DNA from: Myxococcales bacterium
Lineage (GTDB): Bacteria > Myxococcota_A > Bradymonadia > UBA7976 > UBA1532
Direction of reading: 5' to 3'
Assembly: GCA_020633555.1 (NCBI GenBank)
Contig: JACKDL010000026.1
Coordinates: 64,001-82,199 of the forward strand
Length of the DNA: 18,199 nucleotides
A model generated the notes under the pieces. It saw only the letters and a list, made by a program, of their open reading frames with translations. It searched no databases and was not told the DNA's origin. The position numbers and the translations under genes are program-made. Below are positions 3,012 through 18,199 of the stretch, piece by piece. How positions within the stretch are numbered: the first letter of the stretch is position 1; each line of letters starts with the position of its first letter.

Positions 3012-3136
3012 GACGGTCTCCTGGAAGTGCGCGCAACCTAGCAGCCTGGGGGGCGACGCACCACCTCGCCCCCGGGGGGCGCGCGGGCCCCACCCGCTGG
3101 GTCATAGTGGCGGCCCCTTCAACCGGGAGACACGGG
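3012..3136. promoter_or_regulatory. Divergent intergenic region between the POT transporter (-) and the lipoprotein gene (+). It presumably carries both promoters.
   Basis: 125-bp non-coding gap flanked by divergently oriented start codons, with an RBS on each side. No sigma-factor consensus was recognised. Confidence 0.3.
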
Positions 3137-4360
3137 ATGCGCGGGACGACGATGGGGCTGGTGGGGTGCCTGCTGGCCGGGCTGGGGCTGGGCTGCGACG
3201 ACGGCGGCGAGGGGGGCGGCGGCGTGGGCCCGGCCGGGCCTTGCCAGGCGGTGGGGGATCCCATCGCGTTGCCCGCGGCGTCGCGGTTCAAGGCGGCCGC
3301 CCACGGCGACGGCTACCTGGTGGTGGCCGAAGAGGGCGGCTTTGGCTCGGGGCAGTGGGGCACCACGGTCATCGGGGCCGACGGCCAGACCACCCACGTG
3401 GACGGCGCGCCGGGCCGGGATCCGCTGGCCCTGGTGGGCGGCGAGGTGGCCCTGGGGCTGGGGCTGGGGACCCGCTTCGACTTTGAAGAGGAGGTGGCGG
3501 TGCGGGCCTTCGCCAGCGACGGCTGGGCGGCGCCGGCGGAGGGCTTCAGCGCGGCGCCCCCGGCCGAGGCCGAGCTGTTCAACGACGAGGTCGCGCTGGC
3601 CCTGGGCGCGGACGGCACCCTGGTGGTGGCGTGGAGCGCGGGGCGCCCCACGTTGGAGGGGTCGCAGGTCTGGGTGCACCTGAAGCGTCCGGGCGAGCCG
3701 CTGGGCGCCGCCGAGCTGGTGTTCGCGCCCATGGTGGGCGTGCGCGACACGGCCCTGCACCTGGCGGTGGCGGCCGATGGGGCCGTGCACCTGGGCGTCA
3801 CCGCGCGCACCGGTGACACCGTGAGCCTGCTGCACAAGATACGGGAGGTCGACGGGCGCTGGGTGGGGCCCGCCCACGTGGGCCCGGTGCCCGACGCGGT
3901 GGGCAACGCCACCATGACCGGGCTGGTGGGCGGCCCGGCCGGGGTCTTCGCCATGGAGGCCCACGGGGCCGACTACGCGGCGGGCACCGACGGGGCCACG
4001 GTGTTCTACCGGCTCGAGGGCGAAGCCTGGGCCGAGCTGGGCCGGGTGGGGGACGACCGCCCGGTGGTGGTGGGCGCCTCGGCGGCGGCGCTGCCCGACG
4101 GGGTGGTGGCGGCGGTGGGCTACGGCCAGAACAACCTGGACTACCAGGAGAGCCGCGACACGGTGGAGCTGCTGCGCTGCAGCCCCGCCGGTTGCGGGCG
4201 CGCGCTGGTGGTGGCGCCCACGCCGGGGGTCTTCTACGACAACCCGGTGGTGGTCACCCGCGGCGACGCCGGGCTGGTGGTGTGGGCCGCCGAGGGCAAG
4301 GGGCCCGACGGCGTGGAGGCGACCTGGGCCCAGCGCTTCCGCTGCCCCGCGGCGGAGTAG
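3137..4360 (+). CDS. Hypothetical secreted protein or lipoprotein (Gly/Ala/Val-rich, probably beta-rich)
   Basis: ATG at 3137 is preceded by GGGAGA at a 6-nt spacing. N-terminus MRGTTMGLVGCLLAGLGLGCDDGGEGGGG (signal peptide with Cys, lipoprotein-like). High GC3. Recurrent LVVAW/LVVWAAEG-type strands. The upstream GTG at 3107 suggested by the ORF track is less likely. Confidence 0.6.
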   Translation: MRGTTMGLVGCLLAGLGLGCDDGGEGGGGVGPAGPCQAVGDPIALPAASRFKAAAHGDGYLVVAEEGGFGSGQWGTTVIGADGQTTHVDGAPGRDPLALVGGEVALGLGLGTRFDFEEEVAVRAFASDGWAAPAEGFSAAPPAEAELFNDEVALALGADGTLVVAWSAGRPTLEGSQVWVHLKRPGEPLGAAELVFAPMVGVRDTALHLAVAADGAVHLGVTARTGDTVSLLHKIREVDGRWVGPAHVGPVPDAVGNATMTGLVGGPAGVFAMEAHGADYAAGTDGATVFYRLEGEAWAELGRVGDDRPVVVGASAAALPDGVVAAVGYGQNNLDYQESRDTVELLRCSPAGCGRALVVAPTPGVFYDNPVVVTRGDAGLVVWAAEGKGPDGVEATWAQRFRCPAAE

Positions 4361-4438
4361 GCGCCGTAGGCCAGGTCCGGTGCGACGGCGTGCGGGGCGG
4401 CCTGCTAGGCTGACTGCCTGGGTGCCAGAGGGGTGGTC

Positions 4439-5032
4439 ATGACCGCGGCAGGGAAGATGGAGCGCATGTCCGAGGCCGAGTACCTGGCCTGGGAGGCCGA
4501 GCAGGCGGGCAAGCACGAGTGGCTGAACGGCGAGATCGTCGCCATGTCGGGGGCGCGGGCGCTGCACAACCTGCTGGTGGCGAACCTTGTCCGTGCCTTG
4601 CAACGGGGGTTGGACGGGCGGCCCTGCGATGTCCTGGGCAGTGACCAGCGGGTGATGGTGGCCGACTCCACCATGTACGCCTACCCCGATCTGATGGTGG
4701 TGTGTGGCCAGCCGGTGCTCAGCCCCACCGATCGGATGAGCCTGACCAACCCCACGGTGGTGGTGGAGGTGCTCTCGCCGTCCACCGAGGCCCACGACCG
4801 CGGCGCCAAGTTCGCCCACTACCGCCAGCTCCCCAGCCTGCAGGCCTATGTGCTCGTGAGCACCGAGCTGGATCGGGTGGAGGTCTTCGAGCGCGACGGG
4901 GCTGAGTGGCGCTTCCGCGAGGCCGGTGCGTCGGTGCGCCTGGACTGCCTGAGCCTGACCCTGAGCATGGCCGAGGTCTATTGGCGCGCCGATCTGTACC
5001 GCGCCGCCGAGGCCGAGGCCGCGGCGGAATAG
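4439..5032 (+). CDS. Uma2 family endonuclease (DUF820, restriction-endonuclease-like fold)
   Basis: The sequence has the family hallmarks EYLAWEAEQAGKHEWLNGEIV..MSGA...HNLLVANLVRAL, YPDLMVVCG, PTVVVEVLSPSTEAHDRGAKFAHYRQLPSLQAYVLV and LDRVEVFER. A GAGGGG RBS lies 6 nt before the ATG at 4439. The track ORF starts at GTG 4433. Confidence 0.8.
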   Translation: MTAAGKMERMSEAEYLAWEAEQAGKHEWLNGEIVAMSGARALHNLLVANLVRALQRGLDGRPCDVLGSDQRVMVADSTMYAYPDLMVVCGQPVLSPTDRMSLTNPTVVVEVLSPSTEAHDRGAKFAHYRQLPSLQAYVLVSTELDRVEVFERDGAEWRFREAGASVRLDCLSLTLSMAEVYWRADLYRAAEAEAAAE

Positions 5033-5122
5033 CCCCCGCCGTGCGCCCCCGGCCGGCTCCGTGGCATCGACTGCCGTGCTCGGTGTAGAACCCCGCGGCA
5101 ACCCCATCCCTCGGAGCGACCC

Positions 5123-5743
5123 ATGCTGACCCGCCGTCGGATCCTCGCTGGCCTCGTGGCCCTGACCGCCCTGGCCGTGGCCGCCCCCACCCTCGCGGGC
5201 CGCCGCGACAGCAAGCCCGCCCACGAGCAGGCCCTGGGCCAGCTCATCAACAACGTGCGCTACGGGCAGGACAACACCGCCCTGACCTTCCTGGACGGCC
5301 CGCTGCAGGGGCCCGTGCTGCTGGGCGACGCCTGGGGCAAGGGCACGGCCGAGCAGCAGGCGGAGTTCATCAAGCTGTTCCACCACCTGTTCGCGGCGGT
5401 GGCCTTCCCGAAGATGCGCGACAGCTTCCAGCACCTGACCACGGTGACCTACGACGCCCCCAAGGCGGCGGGGGACCGGATCGAGGTGGGCAGCGTGCTG
5501 CACATCCAGGCGGGCCCGAAGGAGCAGGAGCTGAAGCTGGTGTACTCGCTGAGCAAGGCGGCCGACGGCGCCCTGAAGGTGGTGGACGTGACCATCGTGG
5601 GCGAGGCGTCGATGCTGGCGAGCATCCGCGACGATCAGATCACCCCGATCATGGCCGAGGGCGGCTGGCCCAAGCTGCTGGAGCTGCTGCGGGCCCGCGC
5701 CAAGGACCTGCCGGCCATTGTCGATCAGCCGCTGAAGAAGTAG
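5123..5743 (+). CDS. Periplasmic MlaC/Ttg2D-family (HpnM-like) lipid-binding protein with a twin-arginine signal peptide
   Basis: 206 aa. N-terminus MLTRRRILAGLVALTALAVAAPTLAG (Tat-type RR motif plus hydrophobic core). Size and the C-terminal VVDVTIVGEASMLASIRDDQITPIMAEGGWPKLLELLRARAK resemble the MlaC/Ttg2D C-terminal region. It lies immediately upstream of an MMPL transporter, as in hpnM-hpnN pairs. GGAG RBS. Confidence 0.6.
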   Translation: MLTRRRILAGLVALTALAVAAPTLAGRRDSKPAHEQALGQLINNVRYGQDNTALTFLDGPLQGPVLLGDAWGKGTAEQQAEFIKLFHHLFAAVAFPKMRDSFQHLTTVTYDAPKAAGDRIEVGSVLHIQAGPKEQELKLVYSLSKAADGALKVVDVTIVGEASMLASIRDDQITPIMAEGGWPKLLELLRARAKDLPAIVDQPLKK

Positions 5744-5807
5744 CGCGCCGCACCAAGCCCTGACCCATGAACCAGCCGCGCGGCCGCGCGGAAAGGCCAC
5801 CCCCTCG

Positions 5808-8288
5808 ATGGCGAATCGGATCGTGAACGCCTGGTCGAGCCTGCTGGTGCGGCGCCCCGGCGCGGTGCTGCTGGCCGTGATGCTGCTGGCGGTGGCCGCC
5901 GGCGGGGCCGCCAGCCGCCTGACCATCAACACCAACCAGCTCGACCTCATCAGCCAGGATCTGCGGCAGGTGAAGGACGTGAAGCGGGTGGTGGACATGG
6001 TGGGCGGCGCCGGCCACCTGATCCTGGCCCTGCGCGGCACCGACGAGACGCTGCTGAAGGCGGCGGCGGACGAGGTGCACGACCTGCTCATCGCCGACAA
6101 GGCCCACATCCGCGAGATCACTTACAAAGTGCCCGTGGACTTCGTGCGGAAGCGCGCCGCGCTCTTCATGAAGACCGAGGACCTGGCCGAGGTGAAGACG
6201 CGGGTGATGCTGAAGGTGAAGGACGCCATGAAGCGGGCCAGCCCGTTCTTCGTGGAGATCCGTCCGACGCCGCCCTACGAGCTGAAGCTCGACGACATCG
6301 TCGAGAAGTACAAGCGGGTGGGGAAGAAGAGCATCACCGACGACTACTACATCAGCGACGACCGGCAGATGGTGCTGCTGCTGCTCAAGCCCATGTGGGA
6401 TTCGAACCAGCTCGGCGAGACGGGCGAGCTCACCGCGTCCATCCGCAAGACGCTGGCCGAGTACAGCCAGCGCAACGGGCACGGGATCACGATCGTCGAG
6501 GACGCCAGCAGCGAGCCGGCGGCGGATCCCAAGACCATCGAGTTCGGCTTCACCGGCACCTACCAGACCAACTACGACGACAGCTTCCAGATCCAGGCGT
6601 CGCTGGCGCCCGTGAGCCTGCTGTCGCTGGGCGGCGTGGCGCTGATGCTGCTGCTGTTCTTCGGCCGCCACGTCACCGCCATCGGGCTGGTGATCAGCGG
6701 GCTGCTCATCGGGGTGGCGCTGACCTTCGGCTTCGCCTGGCTGGCGGTGGGGCAACTGAACCTGATCACCGTCATCCTGGGCGGGATCCTCATGGGCATC
6801 GGCATCGACTTCGGCATCCACTTCGTCTACCGGCTGAAGCTGGAGCTGGGCGCGGGGCTGGCGGTGGACGAGGCGGTGGCCGAGACGGTGCGCCGCTCCG
6901 GGCCGGCGTCGCTGGCGTCGGCGGCGGGCACGGGGGCGGCCTTCCTGTCGCTGCTGTTCTCGGAGTTCCGTGGCTTCAGCGAGTTCGGGCTGCTGGCGGG
7001 CGCCGGCGTGTTCCTCACCGGCGGCGTGATGTACCTGTGGGTGCCGGCCTGCGTGGTGTGGCTGGAGCGTCGCGCGCCGGGGCTGGCCCGCAGGCTGGTG
7101 GGCACCCGCGCGCCGGCGGATCCGGCGGCCGAGGCGGGGGCCCACGGCGCCTGGGCCCGGGTGCTGCTGTGGGGCTCGGTGCTGGGCTTCGGGGCCCTGG
7201 CCGCCTTCGCGCCCGGCGTGAAGTTCGAGTACAACACCCGCGCGCTGATGGTGGAGGACCAGCCCAGCATCCGCCTGCAGGACGAGGTGAACGCGCGCTT
7301 CCAGATCAGCGCCGATCCGGTGGCGGTGTACACGCCCACCCTGGAAGGGGCCAAGCAGGTGTTCGACCTGTTCAACCCCCTGGATCCACAGCGCTTCAGC
7401 ACGGTGGATCAGGTGGTGTCCATGTACACCTTCGTGCCGCCGGCCGAGCAGCAGCAGGCCAACGCGAAGATCCTGGCCGAGTGGCGCAACGAGCTGGCGA
7501 AGATCGACCGCAAGAAGCTGCCCGCGGACGCCGAGAAGCAGCTCGACGAGGGCCTGCCCTACCTGCAGGTGGAGCCCTACGGCCTGGACGGCATCCCCGA
7601 CCTGTACAAGGGCATGTTCACCCACCTGCCGAGCACGAAGCCCGAGAACCACGGCTACCTGACCTTCGTGTACCCGGTGGTGGATCTGTGGGACGGCAAG
7701 CAGATGCTGAAGTTCGGCGACGAGGTGGAGAACCTGACCGTGGCCGACGGCACCACCTACCACGCCGCGGGGCTGCCCATCCTGTTCGCCAAGCTGGCCC
7801 GCATCGTGCTGTACGACGGCAAGCTGACGGTGGCGCTGACGGGGGCGTTCTTGCTGCTGATCCTGCTGCTGGATCTGCGCCGGCCGGTGAGCGTGGCCGT
7901 GGCCCTGCTGCCGCTGCTGGTGGGCCTGGGGGTCATGCTGGGGGTGATGGCGCTGGGCGACTTCCAGCTCAACTTCATGAACGTGGTGGTGTTCCCCATC
8001 GTGCTGGGCTACGGCGTGAGCCACGGCGTGTACCTGATGCACCGCTTCCAGGAGGGGGTGAGCCCCACCGAGGCGCTGCGATCGGTGGGCGCGGCGGTGG
8101 CGTGCAGCACGCTGACCACCCTGGCGGGCTGGGCCGGGCTGCTGGCGGCCAGCCACCGCGGCCTGAAGTCCATGGGCATCATGGCGTGCCTGGGCATGGC
8201 GGCCACCCTGGTGGTGTCGGCCACGCTGATGGCGGCGGTGCTGCAGATCCTGCACGAGCGGCGGCTGCGCAAGGGGGCTGCGGCGTGA
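5808..8288 (+). CDS. MMPL-family RND superfamily exporter (HpnN-like lipid transporter)
   Basis: 826 aa. An N-terminal TM helix is followed by a periplasmic domain, five TM helices (one carrying GIGIDFGIHFVYR, a GxxxD proton-relay-like motif), a second periplasmic domain and six more TM helices. This is the classic duplicated RND/MMPL topology. High GC3. Confidence 0.9.
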   Translation: MANRIVNAWSSLLVRRPGAVLLAVMLLAVAAGGAASRLTINTNQLDLISQDLRQVKDVKRVVDMVGGAGHLILALRGTDETLLKAAADEVHDLLIADKAHIREITYKVPVDFVRKRAALFMKTEDLAEVKTRVMLKVKDAMKRASPFFVEIRPTPPYELKLDDIVEKYKRVGKKSITDDYYISDDRQMVLLLLKPMWDSNQLGETGELTASIRKTLAEYSQRNGHGITIVEDASSEPAADPKTIEFGFTGTYQTNYDDSFQIQASLAPVSLLSLGGVALMLLLFFGRHVTAIGLVISGLLIGVALTFGFAWLAVGQLNLITVILGGILMGIGIDFGIHFVYRLKLELGAGLAVDEAVAETVRRSGPASLASAAGTGAAFLSLLFSEFRGFSEFGLLAGAGVFLTGGVMYLWVPACVVWLERRAPGLARRLVGTRAPADPAAEAGAHGAWARVLLWGSVLGFGALAAFAPGVKFEYNTRALMVEDQPSIRLQDEVNARFQISADPVAVYTPTLEGAKQVFDLFNPLDPQRFSTVDQVVSMYTFVPPAEQQQANAKILAEWRNELAKIDRKKLPADAEKQLDEGLPYLQVEPYGLDGIPDLYKGMFTHLPSTKPENHGYLTFVYPVVDLWDGKQMLKFGDEVENLTVADGTTYHAAGLPILFAKLARIVLYDGKLTVALTGAFLLLILLLDLRRPVSVAVALLPLLVGLGVMLGVMALGDFQLNFMNVVVFPIVLGYGVSHGVYLMHRFQEGVSPTEALRSVGAAVACSTLTTLAGWAGLLAASHRGLKSMGIMACLGMAATLVVSATLMAAVLQILHERRLRKGAAA

Positions 8289-8884
8289 GCGGGGCGGGGT
8301 GGCGACGGGCGCTGCTGTGCGGGGCGGCCCTGGGCGGCCTGGCGGCCTGCTCCCCGGTCAAGGAGACCTGGGTGCGGCCGGACTACAAGCAGGTGGACCG
8401 CACCAAGACGCTGCGCATCTCGGTGGTGACGGCGCCGGCGCCTGCGGGCGAGGCGAAGCTGGGGGAGCTCTGGTCGGCACTGGCGCGGACCTACATCAAC
8501 CAGCACCGTGACTTCATCGTGGTCGAGGACTACACCGATCAGGCGGTGCCGGCAGACGTGTGCAATGGGAACCTCGAGGGGTTCCTGCACTTCACGCCGA
8601 CGGTGAAGGCCCGCGCCGGCGGCGCCGAGGCGGCCCTCGAGGCGGTGCTCGTGCGCTGCCACGACCGCGAGCCCGTGTGGCGGGCCTCGGCGGCCGGCGA
8701 CTGGGACAGCGACGACGACGATCTGGACGAGGCGAAGCGCCACTGGACGGGGCGCTTCGGCGACGGCATCGCGGCCTGGGTGGTGCCCAGCTACCGGCTG
8801 ATCACGGGCACGTGCGAGGCGCTGCCCGAGCCCGAGCTGCCCACCGAGGCGTACATCCGCGAGAAGATCCAACTGGGGGAGTGA
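8285..8884 (+). CDS. Uncharacterised lipoprotein, translationally coupled to the MMPL gene
   Basis: The GTG at 8285 overlaps the MMPL TGA stop (GTGA). An AGGGGG RBS lies upstream. N-terminus VSGAGWRRALLCGAALGGLAAC|S has a canonical lipobox (LAAC). About 180 aa mature, soluble and acidic (DWDSDDDDLDE). It is the in-frame 3' part of track ORF 6395..8884, whose upstream part is artefact. Confidence 0.7.
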   Translation: MSGAGWRRALLCGAALGGLAACSPVKETWVRPDYKQVDRTKTLRISVVTAPAPAGEAKLGELWSALARTYINQHRDFIVVEDYTDQAVPADVCNGNLEGFLHFTPTVKARAGGAEAALEAVLVRCHDREPVWRASAAGDWDSDDDDLDEAKRHWTGRFGDGIAAWVVPSYRLITGTCEALPEPELPTEAYIREKIQLGE

Positions 8885-8919
8885 CCTGCGGGTCACGGGA
8901 CGAGAAAGGGCCTTCGCCG

Positions 8920-9783
8920 ATGGCAGGCTTTGACATCAAGCGGTTCCTGGAGCTGGCGGGCGCGGTGAAGACCGACGACCTGGACTGGGACGCCTGCGCC
9001 AAGGCGGGCCTCACCCCGCACGAGGCGCGCATCCTGCGCTACATGGCCGACACCGAGTCGCACACCATCCTGTACATGCGCGACCTGCTGGCCGGGCACA
9101 GCACGCGCGATCCCGCCATCACCGCCTTCCTGTCGGTGTGGGTGTACGAGGAGCTCTGCCACGGCCGCGCCCTGAGCAAGGTGCTGGAGGTGTGCGGCTA
9201 CCCCGAGGCCGAGGATCACTACACGCAGGTGACCACGGGCAGCTCCATGCGCGAGCTGATGGAGGCGGTGCTGAGCCACGGCGCCGCCTACCTGACGCCC
9301 AAGTTCATCGCGGTGCACATGACCTGGGGCGCCATCAACGAGGCGGCGGCGGCGGTGGCCTACCAGCGCCTGGAGAAGCTCACGGCCAACCCCGTGCTGG
9401 CCACGCTGTGCAACCGCATGGCGCGCCAGGAGCGGCGGCACTTCAGCTTCTACTACCACCAGGCCAAGGCCCGCATGGAGGGCGACCGGGTGGCACAGTT
9501 CCTCACCTACACGGCCATCAAGCGCTTCTGGACGCTGGTGGGCTCGGGGGTGGCGGGGGACGACAACCTGGCCTTCGTGGCGGCCCACCTGTTCCCCGAT
9601 GAGGCCTCGCTGGCCATCCTGGACAAGGCCGAGAAGCCCATCCGCGATCTGCCGCGGCTGGACTGGTTCCACGGGGTCACCGAGGGCACCCGGGCCAAGG
9701 CCGCGGAGTGGCGGGCGGCCAACGGCGAGCCCGCAGCCTGGCCCGCGCCGCCCGTCCTGGAGCCCCAGGCGGCCGCCTCGTGA
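8920..9783 (+). CDS. Ferritin-like diiron-carboxylate protein, soluble acyl-ACP desaturase-like (FA_desaturase_2-type) oxygenase or desaturase
   Basis: 287 aa from the ATG at 8920, with a GAAAGGG RBS. The two EXXH motifs WVYEELCHG (compare EENRHG) and ARQERRHFSF (compare DEKRH) sit in helical context. Additional candidate Glu ligands are ADTESH and RELMEAV. No TM segments. The first ~120 codons of track ORF 8560..9783 overlap the upstream lipoprotein gene out of frame and are rejected. Confidence 0.65.
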   Translation: MAGFDIKRFLELAGAVKTDDLDWDACAKAGLTPHEARILRYMADTESHTILYMRDLLAGHSTRDPAITAFLSVWVYEELCHGRALSKVLEVCGYPEAEDHYTQVTTGSSMRELMEAVLSHGAAYLTPKFIAVHMTWGAINEAAAAVAYQRLEKLTANPVLATLCNRMARQERRHFSFYYHQAKARMEGDRVAQFLTYTAIKRFWTLVGSGVAGDDNLAFVAAHLFPDEASLAILDKAEKPIRDLPRLDWFHGVTEGTRAKAAEWRAANGEPAAWPAPPVLEPQAAAS

Positions 9784-10160
9784 TCGCCGGCGAGGTGCCC
9801 GCGGGCCTGAAGCGCTGGTTCGTGGTGCACTTCGTGGCGGACTGGCTGTTCGCCCTGCCGCTGTTCTTCGCCCCGGCCTGGTTCCTGGGTCTGCTGGGCT
9901 GGACGACCGTGGATCCCGCCACCGCCCGGCTGGTGGCGGCGGCGCTGGTGGGCATCGGCACCCAGAGCCTCATCGGCAAGGAGGCGTCGCTGGACGCCTA
10001 CCGGGGGATGCTGAACCTGAAGATCCTGTGGTCGGCGTCGGCCACGGCGGGCCTGGTGTGGTCGGCCTTGGAGGGCGGCCCCGCCATGCTGTGGGGCTTC
10101 GTGGCCGTGTTCGGCGGCTTCAACGCCCTGTGGGTGTACTGGCGGCGCCGGATCGCCTGA
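9780..10160 (+). CDS. Small polytopic membrane protein (about 4 TM), function unknown
   Basis: The GTG at 9780 overlaps the TGA of the diiron gene (GTGA). It encodes 126 aa with 3-4 hydrophobic helices (WFVVHFVADWLFALPLFFAPAWFLGLLGW, LVAAALVGIGTQSLIG, ILWSASATAGLVWSAL, MLWGFVAVFGGFNALWVYW). The alternative ATG at 9708 would overlap the diiron gene by 75 nt. Confidence 0.5.
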   Translation: MIAGEVPAGLKRWFVVHFVADWLFALPLFFAPAWFLGLLGWTTVDPATARLVAAALVGIGTQSLIGKEASLDAYRGMLNLKILWSASATAGLVWSALEGGPAMLWGFVAVFGGFNALWVYWRRRIA

Positions 10161-10226
10161 TCGCGCGGTGCAGCGCGGCGCCTTCCGGGCTGGCCGGCGC
10201 GCGGACGCGGTGCTACCTCTTCGCGT

Positions 10227-11126
10227 ATGAACCGCAACATCGTGATGGTGGGGGCCGGGATCGTCGCCGTGGGCGCGTTCCTGGCCGTCTGGCTGCTGGG
10301 GGGCGAGGCCGAGATGGCCGAGGGCTCCACCCCGCGGACGATCCAGGGGACGGAGGGTGAGGCGGCGCCGCCCGCGCCGCTGCCGGTGCTGGGCAGCTCG
10401 GGACGCCCCGATGACCCGGAGCCGGCGCCTGCGGAAGGGCCCCGGCCGAAGGGCGCCGCCGAGCTGGCGCAGGCGCTGGTGGCGAAGCACAACCGGCCCG
10501 ATGGCTCGCTGCCGATGGATCCCGTGGGCGGCGACGCCGGGGTCCCCGAGGGCTGGGCCGAGGGGGACGCGCTGCCGCCGATCCCGATGATCCGCTTCGT
10601 GGCCGATCGCGAGGGCATCCAGGCCGCGGTGCAGGAGCGCAAGCGCCAGATCCAGGAGTGCTACGACGGCTGGGCGAAGTCGCCCGACGCGCCCGAGGGC
10701 AAGATCGTGGCGCGGTTCACCATCGCGCCCGGCGGGCCGGGCATGCCGGCACAGATCAAGGACGCCGGGCTGACGGCGAGCGGGCTGAACCACCTGGCCA
10801 TGGAGGGCTGCGTGCTCAACGCCCTGGAGGGCTTGGGCTTCGAGTCGCCCGAGGGCGAGGTCACCGTCAACTACCCGTTCACCTTCAAGCGGACGGGGCC
10901 GGCAGCGGCGGCGCCCGGCGGCGATCCGGCCGCGGCCATGCCGGAGCCGGGCGCTGAGCCGCCGCCCCCGCCGGGCGATCTGCCGGCGGCCTTCGAGCCG
11001 CCCCCCACCGACGTGCCGCCCGCCGGGGCGCCCACCGATCCGCCGCCCGCCGAGGATCCGCCGCTGCCCGATGTGCCGCCCTCGACGCTGCCCGCGGGGG
11101 ATCCACCGCCGGTGGACGATCCCTGA
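10227..11126 (+). CDS. Membrane-anchored protein with an AgmX/PglI-type C-terminal domain and a Pro-rich tail
   Basis: An N-terminal TM segment (IVMVGAGIVAVGAFLAVWLLGG) is followed by an acidic/Pro linker. Next comes a ~90-aa domain, IQAAVQERKRQIQECYDGW...GKIVARFTIAPGG...MEGCVLNALEGLGFESPEGEVTVNYPFTFK. It aligns residue-for-residue (CY, CVL, YPFxF) with the C-terminus of the gene at 16388-18199. The tail is a PPxP-rich 80 aa. Confidence 0.7.
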   Translation: MNRNIVMVGAGIVAVGAFLAVWLLGGEAEMAEGSTPRTIQGTEGEAAPPAPLPVLGSSGRPDDPEPAPAEGPRPKGAAELAQALVAKHNRPDGSLPMDPVGGDAGVPEGWAEGDALPPIPMIRFVADREGIQAAVQERKRQIQECYDGWAKSPDAPEGKIVARFTIAPGGPGMPAQIKDAGLTASGLNHLAMEGCVLNALEGLGFESPEGEVTVNYPFTFKRTGPAAAAPGGDPAAAMPEPGAEPPPPPGDLPAAFEPPPTDVPPAGAPTDPPPAEDPPLPDVPPSTLPAGDPPPVDDP

Positions 11127-11184
11127 TCGCCGGCGGGCACTCAGCCTTGCGGGCCCTGCCCCACGGCGTTAGCGTCGCCGCCCG

Positions 11185-11787
11185 ATGAGCCGGCGCTTCG
11201 ACCTGACCCCCACCACCGCGTTCTGGGCCTTCGTGGGCCTGCTGACGGCCTGCGGGCTGTACTTCACCGTCGAGGTGGTCCGCTACCAGAGCGCCCGCCG
11301 GGTGGCCCCCACCCAGGCGCCGCTGCGGGCCGGCGAGCCCATCGAGCTGGTGACGGTCATCGACGGCGACGAGCTGACGGCCCGGCGGGGCGACGAGGCC
11401 TTCGTGCTGCGGTTGCTGGGGGTGAAGTGCCCCATGGGCGACGGCGACGGCGCGCTGGCCGTGCACGGGCGCACCTGCCGCGACGCGCTGAGGGGCGCGC
11501 TGGCGAGCGGCACCCTCACCCTGGACTTCGACGGCGAGACCGGCGGCGTGGATCGCCACGGGCGGGTGCTGGGCTATGTGATGGCCGGGCGGCTGGATGT
11601 GGGGGCGGCCCTGGTGAAGCGCGGCGCGCTGGTGGCCTACACTGCCTACCCCTTCGGGCGTGAGGCCGCCTACCTGGCCGCAGAGGCCGAGGCGCGCGCC
11701 CAGGGCCGCGGCCTGTGGGCCGATCCGCAGGCGGTGGCCCAGGTGGACGCCCTGAAGCTCGCCTGGGCGAGCCAGCGGAGCGAGTGA
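11185..11787 (+). CDS. Membrane-anchored thermonuclease (SNase/micrococcal-nuclease-like) family protein
   Basis: An N-terminal TM segment (FWAFVGLLTACGLYFTVEVV) is followed by an SNase-like domain (VTVIDGDELTARRGDEAFVLRLLGVKCP...LTLDFDG...DRHGRVLGYVM.GRLDVGAALVKRGALVAYTAYPF...AEAEARAQGRGLWA). Some canonical catalytic positions look substituted (DTPE is replaced by KCPM). Confidence 0.6.
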   Translation: MSRRFDLTPTTAFWAFVGLLTACGLYFTVEVVRYQSARRVAPTQAPLRAGEPIELVTVIDGDELTARRGDEAFVLRLLGVKCPMGDGDGALAVHGRTCRDALRGALASGTLTLDFDGETGGVDRHGRVLGYVMAGRLDVGAALVKRGALVAYTAYPFGREAAYLAAEAEARAQGRGLWADPQAVAQVDALKLAWASQRSE

Positions 11788-11788
11788 C

Positions 11789-12850
11789 GTGCGGCGCCTG
11801 CTCCACGCCCTGTGGCTGCGGCTGCAGCACAGCTACGGCACCCAGCTCTTCCGGCTGGCGGTGCTGATCGCCGCCATCCTGTTCTTCAGCTCGTCGGGGC
11901 TGCTGTACTTCGAGATGCACGGGCGCCCCGATCTGAGCTGGGGCGACGCCGTGTGGTGGTCGGTGGTGACCATGACCACCGTGGGCTACGGGGATCTGTT
12001 CCCCGAGACGGTGGCGGGGCGCTACCTCATCGGCTTCCCCACCATGCTGTTCGGGATCAGCATCCTGGGCTACGTGCTGTCGATCACCGCGAGCGTGCTC
12101 ATCGAGGTACGCACCAAGGAGCTGCGGGGCATGAGCGACGTGACCTTCGAGGACCACTTCCTGCTGGTGCACTGGCCGGGGCTGGGCCGAGCCCAGGCGG
12201 TGGTGGGCGAGCTGCGGGGCGATCCGAAGACGGCGCGCACGCCCATCGTGCTCATCGACGACCGGCTCGAGGAGCTGCCCGAGAGCCTCGCCCGGCTGGG
12301 CGTGAGCTTCGTGCGGGGCAACCCCACCAAGCTCGACACCCTGGAGCGAGCCCACTACCAGAAGGCCAAGCAGGCGCTGGTGCTGGCCCGCGACCAGCTC
12401 GATCCGGCGAGCGATCACGCGACGCTGGCGGCGGTGCTGACCATCGAGCAGCTCCGCCCCGAGATCAACACCACGGGCGAGTGCGTGGATCCCGACAACC
12501 TGGAGCTGTTCGCCCGCGCGGGCTGTGACGACATGGTGTGCATCGCCCAGCTCAGCTCGAACCTGCTGGTGCAGGAGGCGCTGGATCCGGGCGTGCAGGG
12601 GCTGCTGCAGGAGATCACCAGCAACACCTACGGGCAGAGGGTGTTCGTGGTGCCCATCCGGGCCATGGGCACCTGGCGCTACCAGGAGCTGCTGGACGCC
12701 TTCAGCGGGGCCGACGTGCTGTGCATCGGCCTGCGCCACGAGGACGGGATGGAGCTGAACCCCGCGCCCGGGGCCCGGGTGCGGCAGGGCGACCGGCTGG
12801 TGTGCATCGCGCGGCAGCGGCCCGCGGAGTACGCCCCGGCGGCGAGCTGA
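11789..12850 (+). CDS. Two-TM potassium channel with a C-terminal RCK (TrkA-N-like) domain, MthK-like
   Basis: The GTG start sits 2 nt after the upstream stop. Two TM helices flank a pore helix with the selectivity filter TTVGYGD. A cytoplasmic Rossmann-like RCK region follows (HFLLVHWPGLGRAQAVV...PIVLIDD...VRGNPT). Confidence 0.85.
   Translation: MRRLLHALWLRLQHSYGTQLFRLAVLIAAILFFSSSGLLYFEMHGRPDLSWGDAVWWSVVTMTTVGYGDLFPETVAGRYLIGFPTMLFGISILGYVLSITASVLIEVRTKELRGMSDVTFEDHFLLVHWPGLGRAQAVVGELRGDPKTARTPIVLIDDRLEELPESLARLGVSFVRGNPTKLDTLERAHYQKAKQALVLARDQLDPASDHATLAAVLTIEQLRPEINTTGECVDPDNLELFARAGCDDMVCIAQLSSNLLVQEALDPGVQGLLQEITSNTYGQRVFVVPIRAMGTWRYQELLDAFSGADVLCIGLRHEDGMELNPAPGARVRQGDRLVCIARQRPAEYAPAAS

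Positions 12851-13735: not shown

Positions 13736-13739
<4 letters not shown>
13200..13739 (-). CDS. GNAT-family N-acetyltransferase
   Basis: The GTG at 13737-13739 overlaps the upstream TGA (GTGA). It encodes 179 aa. LATAADIPAMLEF is followed by motif-A-like WRRLGIGRALTKRRLEWL and a C-terminal NRPSIALHRSFGFEQV. It is the in-frame C-terminal portion of track ORF 13200..14738, whose N-terminal 330 aa are an out-of-frame artefact across the hydrolase gene. Confidence 0.8.
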
Positions 13740-15075
<1,336 letters not shown>

Positions 15076-15076
<1 letters not shown>

Positions 15077-16356
15077 CACTCGCCGACCACGGTCCGTGTG
15101 ACGTCGTCGCCCCCGAAGTCGCTGGCCGGATCCAGCAGAGCGGCGTCGGTGTCGTCACCCAGCACGTGCCGCTTCAGGAAGGCCATGGCCAGGCCATTGA
15201 TGATGGGGTAGGCCTCGGCCACCGGCAGGAAGTCGGGGCCGCAGCCGTCGTTGGCGGCCACCTCGACGGGCAGGTCGCAGGCGTTGCTGAAGCTGAAGTG
15301 GCCCGCGTTGGGGAAGTCAACCCGCAGGCTGTCGGGCTGGGTGATGCCCGCCCACAGGGGGTCGCCCTCGGCGGCGTTGGGCAGGGTGGCGTCGCGGCCG
15401 GCGGTCATCATCAGCGTGGGCGTCTGCACCCCCGCCAGGCCGGGCTCGCCCCCGAACAGCGTGTTGCCGGCGGGGGTCATGGGGATCAGCGCCTGGAAGC
15501 GGTCGTCGGCGAAGCCCGCGCGGAAGCGGTCGGCCGCCCGCACGGTGAAGGCGCAGGCCTCCTCCTGGCCCGCGGGCGGGGCCTCGCAGGCGGCGAGCAG
15601 GGCGTCGACGGCATAGCCGGCGCCTCCCACTGCAAGCGTGGTGTAGCCACCGAAGCTGTGGCCGGCCAGCGCGCGCAGGCTGGGGTGGACCCGCCCGGCC
15701 AGCGGGTGATCGGCCGGCAGGGCGTCCACGTAGTCGGCCACCGCGTGGATGTCGGTGGGCCGCAGCTCGAACAGGCGCCAGAAGTCGGCTGAGCTGTCGG
15801 TGAAGGTGTTGCCGGTGTGATCGGGCGCCACCACCACCCAGCCGTGGCTGGCCAGGAACTCGGTGAAGAAGTAGCTCTGCTCGCCGAAGCCCCCGTTGCC
15901 GTGGCTGAACACCAGCACCGGCGCGTCGGCCAGATCGGCCAGGGGCGGGGCGCCGCCGAACACCTCGGGGCGTAGCAGCAGGTTGCCGTAGCGCACCCGC
16001 TCGCCCTCGCTGGCGGCCGTGGGGTACCACCAATGCAGGTCGAGCGGGCGCGGGGCCTCGAGCTCGGGCGCCGCGTACTCGATGGTCTCGACGTGGAAGC
16101 CGACGGCGAAGGGCCCCGGCTCGCCGGGGGCGGGCGGGTCCATGTCCGGGGGGGCCATGTCGGGCGCCATGTCGGCCGGGGCCATGTCGGCCAGGGCCAT
16201 GTCGCCCGCGCCCTGATCGGCCACCGCCTGATCGGCGCCGGCGTCCGCGGTGACGGCCCCGTCGGCGCCCTGCTGGGCGGGCGCGGGATCGCCGTCGTCG
16301 CAGCCGACGGTCAGCGTGAGGGCGAGCAGGGCGAGGGCAGAGCGGGTTCGGAGCAC
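15076..16356 (-). CDS. Secreted alpha/beta-hydrolase lipoprotein, PAF-acetylhydrolase-like, paralog 2
   Basis: The GTG at 16354-16356 has GAGG 5 nt upstream. N-terminus MLRTRSALALLALTLTVGCDD. A DMAP-repeat acidic linker follows. Then WWYPT, VLVFSHGNGGFGEQSYFFTEFLASHGWVVVAPDHTG and GHSFGG. About 45% identity to paralog 1 over the catalytic domain. The track ATG at 16440 would overlap the upstream gene by 53 nt and adds a non-signal-like N-terminus, so it is rejected. Confidence 0.8.
16138..16240. repeat. Short imperfect tandem repeats (units gccatgtcgg and cctgatcggc) encoding the DMAP/ADQ acidic linker of hydrolase paralog 2
   Basis: gccatgtcgggc, gccatgtcggccgg, ggccatgtcggccag and ggccatgtcgccc are followed by ccctgatcggccaccgcctgatcggc. 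The analogous ggcgtcgggctc x2.5 repeat at 14848-14884 encodes the DAEP linker of paralog 1. Confidence 0.6.
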
Positions 16357-16387
16357 GGGGACCTCGGGGCGCTTGGATCGGGCCGGC

Positions 16388-18199
16388 CTATTGGCTCGGG
16401 CTGAAGATGAACGGGTACGCGATGACGCACTCGCCCCCATCGGGCGGGGCCGGGAAGCGGGTGCTGCGGATCACGCCAAGGACACACTCGGCCACCGCGG
16501 CGTCGCCCAGGGTCGAGGACTTGACCTTGGCGCTGCGCACCTCGCCCTGGGGGGTGATGCGCCACTCCACGGTGAGCTTGCCCGACAGCGCGGCAGACTT
16601 GAGCAGGGCCCTCTCGTAGCAGCCCACCACCTTGCCCTGGTGCTGATCCACCGCCGTGCGCACCTGCCCCTTGCTGAGGCTGCAGCTCGACACCTTGGTG
16701 CGGCTGGACAGGTTGCGGACCTTGCCGCGGATGCGGCCGGCGCCCTTGGTGGTCTTCTCGCCCAGGCGACCCACGCGGGCGCCGATCTGCTGGCCCCCGG
16801 TGGTGGCCAGGGGCGCCTGGTCGCGGCCGATGTTCACGTCGCCGCCCGGCAGCGGGGCGCCCACCCCGGGCACCTCCAGGGCGGCGCCGGTGGCGCCCGC
16901 CTTGCCGACGGCGTCGATGTTGCTGGCCACGTCCTTCAAGGTCACGTCGTCGCCCGTGGGGGCGGCGTCGGCGCCCGCGTTGACCGCCGACAGCAGGGCC
17001 TCGGCGTCACCCTGCGCCTGCTGACGCGCGCGCTGCATCTTCCGGCGCACCTTCTGGCGCACCGAGGACGGGAGCTGGGGCGTGGCCTCGGCGGGATCCG
17101 AGGGCCGGGGCGCGGGGGCCTCCTTCGCCTTCGGCGCGCGCTCGGGCCGGGGCTTCGGCGGCTTGGGTGGCGGCGCCTTGGGCTTCGGCTTCGGCTTGAT
17201 CTTCGGCAGCTCCCGGGCGTCCTTCAGGCTGGCGAAGCGCTCCTTGGGCGGGGGCTTGGCCACCGTGAGCTGCACGCCCACCGCGTCCAGCGACACCACG
17301 CCCAGGGCGAACAACAGGTGGAGCACCGCGCCCGCGCCGAGCGCGCCCAGGTACACCCCCCATGGCTTGCGGCGGCCGGTGGCGCGGCCCGCGTCCCGCG
17401 CGGCGTGATCCACGCGGATCCGCCAGGTGGCCTGGGCCCAGCGCAGCTCGGCCCGATCGCCGGGCTCCAGGGGCATCTCGCTGGGGCCTTCGGGCACGGT
17501 CTCGCTGGCGCCCAGGTGCATGCGGCGGCCGGTGGCGCCCGCGGGGATGCACAGGACCACCCCCTGCCCGGTGTGACGCACCACCGGCTGGCCCCGCGGG
17601 AACCGGTCGCGGCTGTGGAGCACCTGCGAGGCGGCCACCACCCCGTCGACGATCCGCGCCACCTCCACCACCACGCCGCCCTGGCGATCGCCGGTGGGGC
17701 GGCCGCTGGTCAGGTCGCCCAGGATGGCGTCCAGGTGCTCTACGGCCGGCGGGCGTGGGGGCTCGGGATCGGCCCAGATGCTCGGCTCGAACCCGTCGGG
17801 GGGCAGGGTCAGGGCGCCGCGGGCCGGGGGCCGCCGACGGGGCTCGGCCTCGGGCGGGCGCACGGCGAAGAGCAGGTCGGTGAACTCGCCCGAGTCCACG
17901 GTGCGCTCGGACAGCGGGCCGGGCGCCTGGGGGCCCGGAACCACGGGCCCCGGGACCGAGCGAGTGGGCTCCTGGCTGGCGCTCGTGGCCTCGCCGGGCA
18001 CCCGGGTGGGCTCCTGCGAGTCGTCCCCCGGCCGCATGGGCACCTGCGCCGTGGGCTCGTCGGTGCCACGGGCCGGGTGGGCGAAGCCGGCGGCCCGTTG
18101 CGGCGCGGCGTGCAGGCGCGTGGGGTCGTCCTCGCCGGGGCTGGGCAGGGGCGCGGTGACCCGCGGCGGCACCAGCGGGGCGATCTCGCCGGGCGGCGT
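16388..18199 (-). CDS. PglI/TonB-like bitopic membrane protein. It has a cytoplasmic N-terminal region, one TM helix, a Lys/Pro-rich spacer and an AgmX/PglI-type C-terminal domain. The 5' end probably lies beyond the window.
   Basis: The frame is open to the window edge. The track start at 18172 is an internal GTG. Architecture: N-terminal ~280 aa with a possible degenerate FHA-like segment (PGDRAELRWAQATWRI), a TM helix (VYLGALGAGAVLHLLFALGVV), the spacer KIKPKPKPKAPPPKPPKPRPERAPKAKEAP, and a C-terminus VRTAVDQHQGKVVGCYERAL...AECVLGVIR...GGECVIAYPFIFS matching the domain in the 10227-11126 gene. Stop at 16388. Confidence 0.7.
   Translation of the reverse strand, partial: TPPGEIAPLVPPRVTAPLPSPGEDDPTRLHAAPQRAAGFAHPARGTDEPTAQVPMRPGDDSQEPTRVPGEATSASQEPTRSVPGPVVPGPQAPGPLSERTVDSGEFTDLLFAVRPPEAEPRRRPPARGALTLPPDGFEPSIWADPEPPRPPAVEHLDAILGDLTSGRPTGDRQGGVVVEVARIVDGVVAASQVLHSRDRFPRGQPVVRHTGQGVVLCIPAGATGRRMHLGASETVPEGPSEMPLEPGDRAELRWAQATWRIRVDHAARDAGRATGRRKPWGVYLGALGAGAVLHLLFALGVVSLDAVGVQLTVAKPPPKERFASLKDARELPKIKPKPKPKAPPPKPPKPRPERAPKAKEAPAPRPSDPAEATPQLPSSVRQKVRRKMQRARQQAQGDAEALLSAVNAGADAAPTGDDVTLKDVASNIDAVGKAGATGAALEVPGVGAPLPGGDVNIGRDQAPLATTGGQQIGARVGRLGEKTTKGAGRIRGKVRNLSSRTKVSSCSLSKGQVRTAVDQHQGKVVGCYERALLKSAALSGKLTVEWRITPQGEVRSAKVKSSTLGDAAVAECVLGVIRSTRFPAPPDGGECVIAYPFIFSPSQ

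What the first reader, a model, noticed from the sequence alone, without database searches (positions are those of the whole stretch)
5123..10160. Five-gene operon coupling an HpnM/MlaC-like lipid binder and an MMPL exporter to a lipoprotein, a soluble desaturase-like diiron enzyme and a small membrane protein
All five genes are co-directional with short gaps: 64 nt, a -4 nt overlap, 35 nt, and a -4 nt overlap. Two junctions are GTGA start/stop overlaps, which imply translational coupling and a 1:1 stoichiometric relationship. The components are a periplasmic Tat-exported MlaC/Ttg2D-type lipid carrier, an MMPL/RND lipid exporter, a periplasmic lipoprotein, a cytoplasmic diiron enzyme of the acyl-ACP desaturase class, and a small membrane protein. 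The first two parallel hopanoid hpnM-hpnN pairs. The diiron enzyme parallels mycobacterial desA genes near mmpL. Together they form a coherent make-or-modify a lipid and export it to the envelope module. To my knowledge no such five-gene arrangement has a described function. In a myxobacterium it could handle sterol-like, ether or oxidised iso-branched lipids.
Basis: partly seen in the sequence, partly recalled or inferred. Interest (0 to 1): 0.75.

Follow-up and report, generated by a model that had tools for sequence, protein, structure and literature searches.

The report
HpnN-like lipid export operon with diiron enzyme
An uncultured myxobacterium carries a conserved three-gene machine that probably carries a membrane lipid from the inner to the outer membrane, often joined by an uncharacterised iron enzyme that may modify that lipid; it is a new variant of a known kind of system, not a new kind.

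Summary
Five co-directional genes lie at 5123-10160 with gaps of 64, -4 (GTGA), 35 and -4 (GTGA) nt, and all five show coding-type GC3 of 0.95-0.98.

Family calls are confirmed:
- g1 is MlaC-like.
- g2 is an MMPL/RND protein whose only solved relatives are HpnN.
- g3 is a TIGR04455 (MXAN_6521/LA_1396) lipoprotein.
- g4 is a diiron protein with all six ligands, and its best fold match is stearoyl-ACP desaturase.
- g5 is a small membrane protein with no family.

Comparative data split the five genes into layers:
- MlaC-MMPL-lipoprotein is the invariant core. MMPL and lipoprotein are adjacent wherever sequence exists, usually overlapping, and two library proteins are in-frame fusions.
- The diiron gene sits next to the core in about half of its close homologues, in at least seven different flanking contexts.
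- g5 is only loosely linked.

The lipoprotein model is PelC-like, a fold of ring-forming outer-membrane lipoproteins. This parallels the proposed HpnN-HpnM-HpnS hopanoid route.

Scores fall far below the HpnN, HpnM and BstA cut-offs, and no hopanoid or sterol genes were seen nearby. The cargo and the diiron reaction are unknown. The Tat and 1:1 stoichiometry claims are not supported.

Verdict: a new variant of a known kind, of moderate interest.

The parts
5123..5743 (+). g1: secreted soluble MlaC/Ttg2D-like lipid carrier (206 aa). It has a signal peptide and no lipobox.
   Evidence: Pfam MlaC scores 48.1 bits against a cut-off of 26. HpnM TIGR03481 scores only 28 bits against 160. A profile of orthologues hits the Ttg2D-like structure 2qgu (E=3e-5) and MlaC structures over residues 22-196. 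There is one N-terminal hydrophobic segment at residues 6-26. The twin-arginine motif is not conserved in orthologues.
5808..8288 (+). g2: HpnN-like MMPL/RND inner-membrane transporter (826 aa).
   Evidence: Pfam MMPL scores 98.3 bits. NCBIfam HpnN TIGR03480 scores 268.6 bits (cut-off 752), BstA 191.7 (cut-off 1400) and HAE3 169.9 (cut-off 352). The only PDB sequence relatives are HpnN entries 6wu0 (E=4.6e-22) and 5khn. GxGIDFGIH (D334) and GYGxSHGVY (S738, H739, Y742) are invariant in 11 orthologues.
8285..8884 (+). g3: TIGR04455 (MXAN_6521/LA_1396 family) lipoprotein (199 aa), PelC-like fold, probably outer-membrane anchored. Its start overlaps the g2 stop (GTGA).
8920..9783 (+). g4: cytoplasmic ferritin-like diiron-carboxylate protein with a desaturase-like fold (287 aa).
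9780..10160 (+). g5: small polytopic membrane protein of an unnamed family (126 aa). Its start overlaps the g4 stop (GTGA).
   Evidence: It has no Pfam or NCBIfam hit. There are 187 homologues of 122-145 aa, all unannotated. H17, D21, D45, P46, R50, K81 and W84 are invariant. It lies next to the diiron gene in the window, L001, L002, L006, L007, L008 and L094, but stands alone or beside unrelated genes in L090-L093 and L095.

Best explanation
The locus encodes a three-component route that moves a still unidentified lipid between the inner and outer membranes.
- g2 is an HpnN-like RND/MMPL transporter. It would use the proton gradient to extract the lipid from the inner membrane.
- g1 is a soluble MlaC-like carrier that would ferry the lipid across the periplasm.
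- g3 is a PelC-like lipoprotein anchored in the outer membrane. It would act as the docking or insertion station, playing the role proposed for MlaA-like HpnS in hopanoid transport.

Fused to this core in a sub-lineage of uncultured Myxococcota is g4. It is a cytoplasmic O2-activating diiron enzyme with a desaturase-like fold. It most likely desaturates or hydroxylates the acyl or alkyl part of the cargo, or of its precursor, before export. g5 is a small membrane protein translationally coupled to g4. Its role is unknown and its link to the system is weak.

Shown here: gene structure, family and fold assignments, conserved catalytic and relay residues, and synteny. Inferred: the direction of transport, outer-membrane location in this organism, the identity of the cargo, the chemistry of g4, and co-transcription.
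For: Core trio:
- In every locus recovered with a lipoprotein profile that holds upstream sequence, an MMPL gene lies immediately upstream. MlaC lies upstream of that in all but L084.
- The MMPL-lipoprotein junction is a 4-11 nt overlap in the window, L094, L004, L009 and L010.
- Two library representatives, P0294 and P0320, are in-frame MMPL-lipoprotein fusions that keep the signal peptide and lipobox.
- The lipoprotein family is tiny, with 221 clusters among 1.84 billion proteins, so these adjacencies cannot be chance.

Transporter: only HpnN is related among solved structures. The TM4 Asp motif (GIDF, aligned with HpnN GVDF) and a TM10 S-H-x-x-Y motif are invariant.

Carrier: the profile matches phospholipid-binding Ttg2D and MlaC structures.

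Lipoprotein: it has a PelC/PqiC/LptE-type fold. It has no +2 Lys, and its M. xanthus namesake was found in the outer-membrane fraction.

Published analogue: the HpnN-HpnM-HpnS proposal (PMC12324291).

Diiron link:
- The gene is adjacent to the trio in the window, L004, L005, L006/L094, L009/L097 (divergent orientation), L010, L014, L081, L082 and L086. These have at least seven different flanking contexts.
- It stays next to MlaC and the lipoprotein even where the MMPL gene is missing (L001-L003).
- A paralogous subfamily in Myxococcaceae and Polyangiales always follows CDP-alcohol phosphatidyltransferase and LPG_synthase_TM genes (9 loci).
- One locus has a 2Fe-2S ferredoxin beside it.
- All six diiron ligands are invariant, and the best fold match is stearoyl-ACP desaturase.
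Against: - There is no experimental datum for any member of the lipoprotein, diiron or g5 families.
- About eight close diiron homologues (50-67% identity) with adequate flanks have no trio nearby (L007, L008, L012, L013, L015, L016, L018, L096, L098). At least two trios lack the diiron gene (L084, L085).
- The in-frame fusions would tether the lipoprotein domain to the inner membrane unless signal peptidase II releases it. That would argue for an inner-membrane rather than an outer-membrane role.
- MXAN_6521 was identified in the outer-membrane fraction from a single peptide.
- No ferredoxin or reductase is encoded in the window.
- The direction of transport cannot be read from sequence. The Mla system, from which the MlaC analogy comes, is usually considered retrograde.
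Confidence: 0.5

Rival explanations
1. Only the trio is a functional unit. The diiron gene and g5 are neighbours through shared ancestry within one Myxococcota lineage, and they act in an unrelated pathway.
For: The diiron gene occurs without the trio in about eight close homologues, and the trio occurs without it in L084 and L085. More distant family members sit in unrelated contexts such as TetR regulators, anti-sigma factors and TPP-decarboxylase halves. g5 is stand-alone in L090-L093 and overlaps an unrelated gene in L095.
Against: Adjacency of the diiron gene to the trio persists across at least seven different flanking contexts. It holds over 54-71% diiron identity, in both same-strand and divergent orientation, and even after loss of the MMPL gene (L001-L003). 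Inherited synteny alone rarely survives that much rearrangement. The lipid-enzyme neighbours of the paralogous subfamily point the same way.
Confidence: 0.27
2. The module works in the retrograde or homeostatic direction. Like Mla, it would remove mislocalised lipid from the outer membrane and return it to the inner membrane, rather than exporting lipid.
For: g1 belongs to the MlaC/Ttg2D superfamily, whose best-studied system is generally regarded as retrograde (established knowledge). A PelC/PqiC-type outer-membrane lipoprotein could equally be a pick-up point.
Against: The membrane engine is an RND/MMPL protein related to HpnN. HpnN is required for outward delivery of hopanoids to the outer membrane (Doughty 2011, as cited in PMC3924187 and PMC10942540). 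All characterised MMPL/HAE proteins export. The linkage to a cytoplasmic tailoring enzyme fits biosynthesis followed by export.
Confidence: 0.12
3. It is a genuine hopanoid (HpnN/HpnM) or sterol (BstA) transporter locus.
For: The best NCBIfam hits of g2 are HpnN (268.6 bits) and BstA (191.7 bits). g1 weakly hits HpnM. Some myxobacteria make sterols (PMC10942540).
Against: All scores are far below the curated cut-offs (752, 1400 and 160). No squalene or oxidosqualene cyclase or hpn genes appear in the window or in the roughly 20 syntenic loci inspected. The lipoprotein is neither MlaA-like HpnS nor BstC-like. The lipoprotein family is named after members in M. xanthus and Leptospira, which to my knowledge are not reported to make hopanoids or sterols.
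Confidence: 0.06
4. It is a solvent or drug efflux and tolerance system (Ttg2-type toluene tolerance plus an RND pump). The diiron enzyme would detoxify a hydrophobic xenobiotic.
Against: There is no membrane-fusion protein or outer-membrane factor gene. g2 scores only 15 bits on AcrB. It belongs to the lipid-exporting HpnN/MMPL branch. g4 lacks the partner subunits of multicomponent monooxygenases.
Confidence: 0.05

Closest known systems
HpnN-HpnM-HpnS hopanoid trafficking route (HpnN shown in Rhodopseudomonas and Burkholderia; HpnM and HpnS proposed by Lawrence et al. 2025, PMC12324291)
   Same: It has the same three-part logic: an HpnN-type RND/MMPL inner-membrane transporter, a secreted MlaC-like carrier and an outer-membrane lipoprotein, all encoded together. 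HpnN is the only solved relative of g2.
   Different: g2 and g1 score far below the HpnN and HpnM family cut-offs. The lipoprotein has a PelC-like alpha/beta fold (TIGR04455), not the MlaA-like fold. No hopanoid genes are nearby. A diiron enzyme gene is attached.
BstA-BstB-BstC sterol transport system of Methylococcus capsulatus (PMC10942540)
   Same: It also has an MMPL-family inner-membrane transporter related to HpnN, plus a periplasmic binder and an outer-membrane-associated binder, encoded near lipid-modifying genes.
   Different: g2 scores 192 bits against the BstA cut-off of 1400. BstB is PhnD-like and BstC is TatT-like, whereas here the partners are MlaC-like and PelC-like.
Mla and Pqi intermembrane phospholipid transport (MlaC shuttle, MlaA; PqiC lipoprotein ring)
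   Different: The engine here is a proton-driven RND protein, not an ABC transporter or MCE protein. There is no MlaD, MlaE or MlaF. The direction is probably outward.
Soluble acyl-ACP desaturases (castor delta-9 desaturase 1oq4; mycobacterial DesA1 and DesA2)
   Different: Structural-alignment identity is only 14%. The protein is about 70 residues shorter. The Pfam match covers a third of the profile. Sequence relation to DesA2 is marginal (E=0.005). It carries its own signature motifs, EEL[WC]HGRA and M[TA]WGA[IL]NE. Acyl-ACP use is untested.
PelC, outer-membrane lipoprotein of the Pel exopolysaccharide exporter

Membership tests
MlaC / Ttg2D superfamily (Pfam PF05494) | Profile score above the gathering threshold over most of the domain; secreted soluble protein. 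| tested here: met
   g1 scores 48.1 bits against 26, covering profile positions 45-165 of 166. An orthologue profile hits 2qgu (E=3e-5) and MlaC structures over residues 22-196. There is a signal peptide and no lipobox.
HpnM (TIGR03481) | Score above the curated cut-off (160.1 bits); linkage to hopanoid biosynthesis genes. | tested here: not met
   g1 scores 28.1 bits. No hopanoid genes are in the window or in the syntenic loci.
MMPL family RND transporters (Pfam PF03176) | Profile score above threshold; two MMPL repeats; conserved TM4 and TM10 charged or polar relay. | tested here: met
   g2 scores 98.3 bits against 20.5, with two stretches. D334 in GIDFGIH and S738, H739 and Y742 in GYGxSHGVY are invariant in 11 orthologues.
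HpnN hopanoid transporter (TIGR03480, NF052374) | Score above the curated equivalog cut-offs (751.85 and 1100 bits). | tested here: not met
   g2 scores 268.6 and 165.6 bits. PDB HpnN gives 81 bits, E=4.6e-22. It is a relative, not an orthologue.
BstA sterol transporter (NF045600) | Score above the cut-off of 1400 bits; BstB and BstC partners. | tested here: not met
   g2 scores 191.7 bits. The partner genes are MlaC-like and PelC-like instead.
TIGR04455 MXAN_6521/LA_1396 family lipoprotein | Score above the cut-off (60 bits); lipobox cysteine. | tested here: met
   g3 scores 152.3 bits, covering profile positions 11-192 of 192. The LAAC lipobox Cys22 is invariant in 13 sequences. NCBI names the identical protein this way.
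Soluble acyl-ACP desaturase (Pfam PF03405 FA_desaturase_2) | Six diiron ligands (E, ExxH, E, ExxH) on a four-helix core. | tested here: met
Soluble acyl-ACP desaturase (Pfam PF03405 FA_desaturase_2) | Full-length profile match. | tested here: inconclusive
   g4 scores 28.4 bits against 22.7, but only profile positions 97-219 of 325 are matched. Most homologues carry no PF03405 hit, or a Rubrerythrin hit instead. The PDB profile search gives DesA2 at only E=0.005.
Soluble acyl-ACP desaturase (Pfam PF03405 FA_desaturase_2) | Acts on acyl-ACP with ferredoxin as electron donor. | not testable with these tools
   This needs enzymology. The only hint is a 2Fe-2S ferredoxin gene beside the homologue in L097.
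PelC-type outer-membrane lipoprotein | PelC fold; sequence family membership; dodecameric ring at the outer membrane. | tested here: inconclusive

The most novel reading that the evidence does not exclude
The MlaC-MMPL-TIGR04455 trio is a previously unrecognised class of RND-driven lipid export route to the outer membrane. A PelC-like, possibly ring-forming, lipoprotein replaces MlaA-type acceptors. In a lineage of uncultured Myxococcota the route is dedicated to a lipid that is oxidatively tailored (desaturated or hydroxylated) in the cytoplasm by a new family of soluble diiron enzymes. The locus would therefore define both a new outer-membrane lipid and its private delivery route.
Probability: 0.3. 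Interest if true: 0.7.

Novelty: new variant of a known kind. Interest (0 to 1): 0.45.

Why it matters
How Gram-negative bacteria deliver non-LPS lipids to the outer membrane is still largely open. Apart from Mla/Pqi/Yeb and AsmA-like bridges, the only RND-based routes with any data are HpnN (hopanoids) and BstA (sterols).

This trio extends that logic to bacteria not known to make hopanoids or sterols. The lipoprotein family is named after M. xanthus and Leptospira genes, and one member comes from a Planctomycetota MAG. It also brings in a different outer-membrane partner with a PelC-like fold.

Because M. xanthus carries the family, the hypothesis can be tested directly by genetics and membrane lipidomics.

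The attached diiron protein belongs to a widespread family found in at least 577 species-level genomes. None of its members has been studied, and its neighbours repeatedly point to lipids. Assigning its reaction would annotate many genomes.

Tried and rejected
1. Promoter and terminator scan of 4300-11300, plus folding of the four intergenic regions. There were no sigma-70-like sites, no terminator in any gap, and fold energies no better than shuffles. This says nothing about operon boundaries.

2. Word-indexed homologue search with the lipoprotein returned only 8 hits. The exhaustive profile search was needed to size the family, but its hits cannot be placed in genomes.

3. The metagenome scan with the lipoprotein profile gave only 9 loci. 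This was enough to show the core trio but too few for statistics.

5. The afdb50 fold library was unavailable.

6. Literature searches for MXAN_6519 to MXAN_6523, LA_1396 and TIGR04455 found nothing beyond one proteomics table.

7. A 127-aa ORF after the diiron gene in L003 first clustered as a possible g5. It is unrelated to g5 by BLASTP, and from the translated sequence it looks like a CrcB-type fluoride channel, though that identification is by eye and no family search was run.

8. The 279-aa gene that overlaps g5 in L095 is not a diiron homologue.

9. The flanking window genes (Uma2, AgmX-C-domain protein, SNase, K+ channel, PAF-AH-like hydrolases, POT, GNAT) are not conserved beside the module elsewhere, so they were excluded from it.

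10. The listing of cluster members gave almost no taxonomy for the distant lipoprotein homologues.
Full report
**1. What is in the sequence**

The window is 72% GC DNA. NCBI holds proteins identical to g3 and g4 under 'MAG: Myxococcales bacterium'.

Codon-position GC separates real genes from shadow ORFs. The five ORFs of the finding have GC3 of 0.95-0.98 and GC2 of 0.42-0.52. Their coordinates are 5123-5743, 5808-8288, 8285-8884, 8920-9783 and 9780-10160.

There is a 64-nt gap, a GTGA overlap, a 35-nt gap and a second GTGA overlap.

The co-directional run is longer than five genes. An unknown lipoprotein-like gene (3107-4360) and a Uma2 gene (4433-5032) lie upstream. An AgmX/PglI C-terminal-domain protein, an SNase-like nuclease and a K+ channel lie downstream, up to 12850. 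None of these flanks recurs next to the module in other genomes, so the five genes are the relevant block. Consensus scans and folding of the intergenic regions gave no promoter, terminator or unusually stable structure. Co-transcription is therefore inferred from spacing only.

**2. Family and fold assignments**

*g1.* It passes Pfam MlaC (48.1 bits against 26) but not HpnM (28 bits against 160). A profile of nine orthologues matches the phospholipid-binding Ttg2D-like structure 2qgu (E=3e-5) and MlaC structures over nearly the whole length. It has a cleavable signal peptide and no lipobox. The TRRRIL motif of this copy is not conserved, since orthologues begin for example MRIHRWFLRG, MKRILLL or MRKILRN. 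Tat export is therefore unsupported.

*g2.* It passes Pfam MMPL (98.3 bits). Its best NCBIfam hits are HpnN (268.6 bits, cut-off 752), BstA (191.7, cut-off 1400) and HAE3 (169.9, cut-off 352). Among all PDB sequences only the two HpnN proteins are detectable relatives (E=4.6e-22 and 2.7e-20). The TM4 motif GxGIDFGIH has an Asp aligned to the HpnN GVDF. A TM10 motif GYGxSHGVY is also present. Both are invariant in 11 orthologues, which is consistent with a working proton relay (inference).

*g5.* It has no family. 187 homologues of 122-145 aa exist, all unannotated. Polar residues in or near the hydrophobic stretches are invariant: H17, D21, D45, R50 and K81.

**3. Comparative genomics: three layers**

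They come from Myxococcota, Actinomycetota, Rokubacteria/Methylomirabilota, Binatia and Acidobacteriota. I mapped the five window proteins onto 98 fetched loci.

*(a) Core trio.* MMPL and the lipoprotein are adjacent in every locus that contains the lipoprotein and has upstream sequence, except for the L001-L003 variant. MlaC precedes them in all but L084. The MMPL-lipoprotein junction is a 4-11 nt overlap in several lineages. Two representatives in the 1.84-billion-protein library are in-frame MMPL-lipoprotein fusions that retain the signal peptide and lipobox (P0294, P0320). The lipoprotein family has only 221 representative clusters, so the linkage is highly specific. Trios without a diiron gene exist (L084, L085).

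*(b) Diiron gene.*
- It directly follows the lipoprotein in the window, L004, L005, L006, L010, L014, L081, L082, L086 and L094.
- It is divergent from the trio in L009/L097.
- It follows MlaC-lipoprotein in L001-L003, where the MMPL gene is exactly absent.
- These loci have at least seven different sets of flanking genes.
- About eight equally close homologues (50-67% identity) have no trio within 10 kb (L007, L008, L012, L013, L015, L016, L018, L096, L098).

The link is therefore frequent, robust to rearrangement, and not obligatory.

More distant paralogues (34-44% identity) have other neighbours. In nine Myxococcaceae and Polyangiales loci they always follow a CDP-alcohol phosphatidyltransferase gene and an LPG_synthase_TM gene. 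LPG_synthase_TM is the family to which hopanoid-associated HpnL belongs (PMC12324291). This again points to lipids. In L097 a 2Fe-2S ferredoxin gene abuts the diiron gene.

*(c) g5.* It follows the diiron gene in the window, L001, L002, L006, L007, L008 and L094, with the same 4-nt overlap in L094. It stands alone in L090-L093 and overlaps an unrelated gene in L095. Its membership of the system is weak.

**4. Mechanism proposed**

By analogy with HpnN, g2 would extract a lipid from the inner membrane using the proton gradient. HpnN is required for hopanoid delivery to the outer membrane (cited in PMC3924187 and PMC10942540). The 2025 proposal adds that MlaC-like HpnM shuttles hopanoids to the MlaA-like lipoprotein HpnS (PMC12324291). 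Following that scheme, g1 would carry the lipid across the periplasm, and g3 would receive or insert it at the outer membrane. g4 would modify the cargo or its precursor oxidatively in the cytoplasm.

Shown: the families, folds, conserved residues and linkage. Inferred: the direction of transport, the localisation of g3 in this organism, the cargo, the chemistry of g4 and any role of g5.

Hopanoid or sterol cargo is unlikely as a general answer. Scores are far below the equivalog cut-offs. No cyclase or hpn genes were seen in any locus. The lipoprotein family is named for M. xanthus and Leptospira, which to my knowledge are not reported to make such lipids.

**5. Rivals**

- The diiron gene and g5 are unrelated neighbours (0.27).
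- Transport is retrograde, as in Mla (0.12).
- The locus is a true hopanoid or sterol transporter (0.06).
- The locus is a solvent or drug efflux system (0.05).

The in-frame fusions raise a caveat for the outer-membrane docking model. If the lipoprotein domain is not released by signal peptidase II, it would be tethered to the inner membrane.

**6. Comparison and novelty**

The system works like HpnN-HpnM-HpnS and BstABC, but it fails their membership tests. It uses a PelC-like lipoprotein instead. M. xanthus was noted in 2013 to have four HAE3-family transporters of unknown role (PMC3924187). No paper found here addresses this trio, TIGR04455, the diiron family or g5.

I rate it a new variant of a known kind. 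The 'five-gene unit', 'acyl-ACP desaturase class', 'Tat-exported' and '1:1 stoichiometry' statements are over-readings. Interest is moderate (0.45): it is a testable, uncharacterised lipid-trafficking module with a tractable model-organism homologue, but it is not conceptually surprising.

Noticed in passing
library proteins P0294 (1040 aa) and P0320 (1076 aa); no window coordinates: These are in-frame fusions of the HpnN-like MMPL transporter with the TIGR04455 lipoprotein. The signal peptide and lipobox are retained at the junction. P0280 looks like a frameshift artefact.
   Followed up: partly
L001 8698-11235, L002 8553-11262, L003 4426-6638: This is a variant module, MlaC-lipoprotein-diiron (with g5 in L001 and L002), in which the MMPL gene is precisely absent. 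MlaC and the lipoprotein overlap by 4 nt. No MMPL gene lies within 10 kb.
   Followed up: partly
L097 10872-11273 (-), next to the diiron gene at 10001-10846: A 133-aa 2Fe-2S ferredoxin (PF00111) lies convergent, 26 nt after the diiron gene, in the locus where the trio is divergently oriented. It could be the electron donor.
   Followed up: no
L027, L029, L032-L035, L040, L060, L076 (about 3 kb upstream of the diiron match): In Myxococcaceae and Polyangiales MAGs a paralogous diiron subfamily (34-37% identity) always follows CDP-alcohol phosphatidyltransferase and LPG_synthase_TM genes. SelA-like and HNH genes usually lie further upstream.
   Followed up: partly
window 13736-15079 (-) and 15076-16440 (-): These are tandem paralogous lipoprotein alpha/beta hydrolases with weak PAF-acetylhydrolase and chlorophyllase hits. 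They overlap by 4 nt. They may be lipases, and they are not conserved next to the module elsewhere.
   Followed up: partly
window 10227-11126 (+) and 16388-18172 (-): These are two proline-rich proteins with a similar C-terminal domain. The first scores as an AgmX/PglI C-terminal (myxo_SS_tail) domain. The second has a weak TonB_C hit.
   Followed up: no
window 9780-10160 (+); alignment A4: The g5 family has invariant polar residues in or near its hydrophobic segments (H17, D21, D45, P46, R50, K81, W84). This suggests a specific binding or relay function rather than a mere membrane anchor.
   Followed up: no
window 11185-11787 (+) and 11789-12850 (+): An SNase-like nuclease gene is followed, one base after its stop, by a K+ channel gene with an RCK/TrkA-N domain. 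L098 also has a Castor/Pollux-type channel just upstream of its diiron homologue, which is probably coincidence.
   Followed up: no
window 4433-5032 (+): A Uma2-family putative restriction endonuclease (109.8 bits) lies directly upstream of the module. A Uma2 homologue also appears in L027, far from the diiron gene.
   Followed up: no
L093 4641-5225 (+) and neighbours: A stand-alone g5 homologue lies about 3 kb from a MiaE-type diiron gene, a ketoacyl synthase and an acyltransferase. This is a different diiron and lipid neighbourhood for g5.
   Followed up: no
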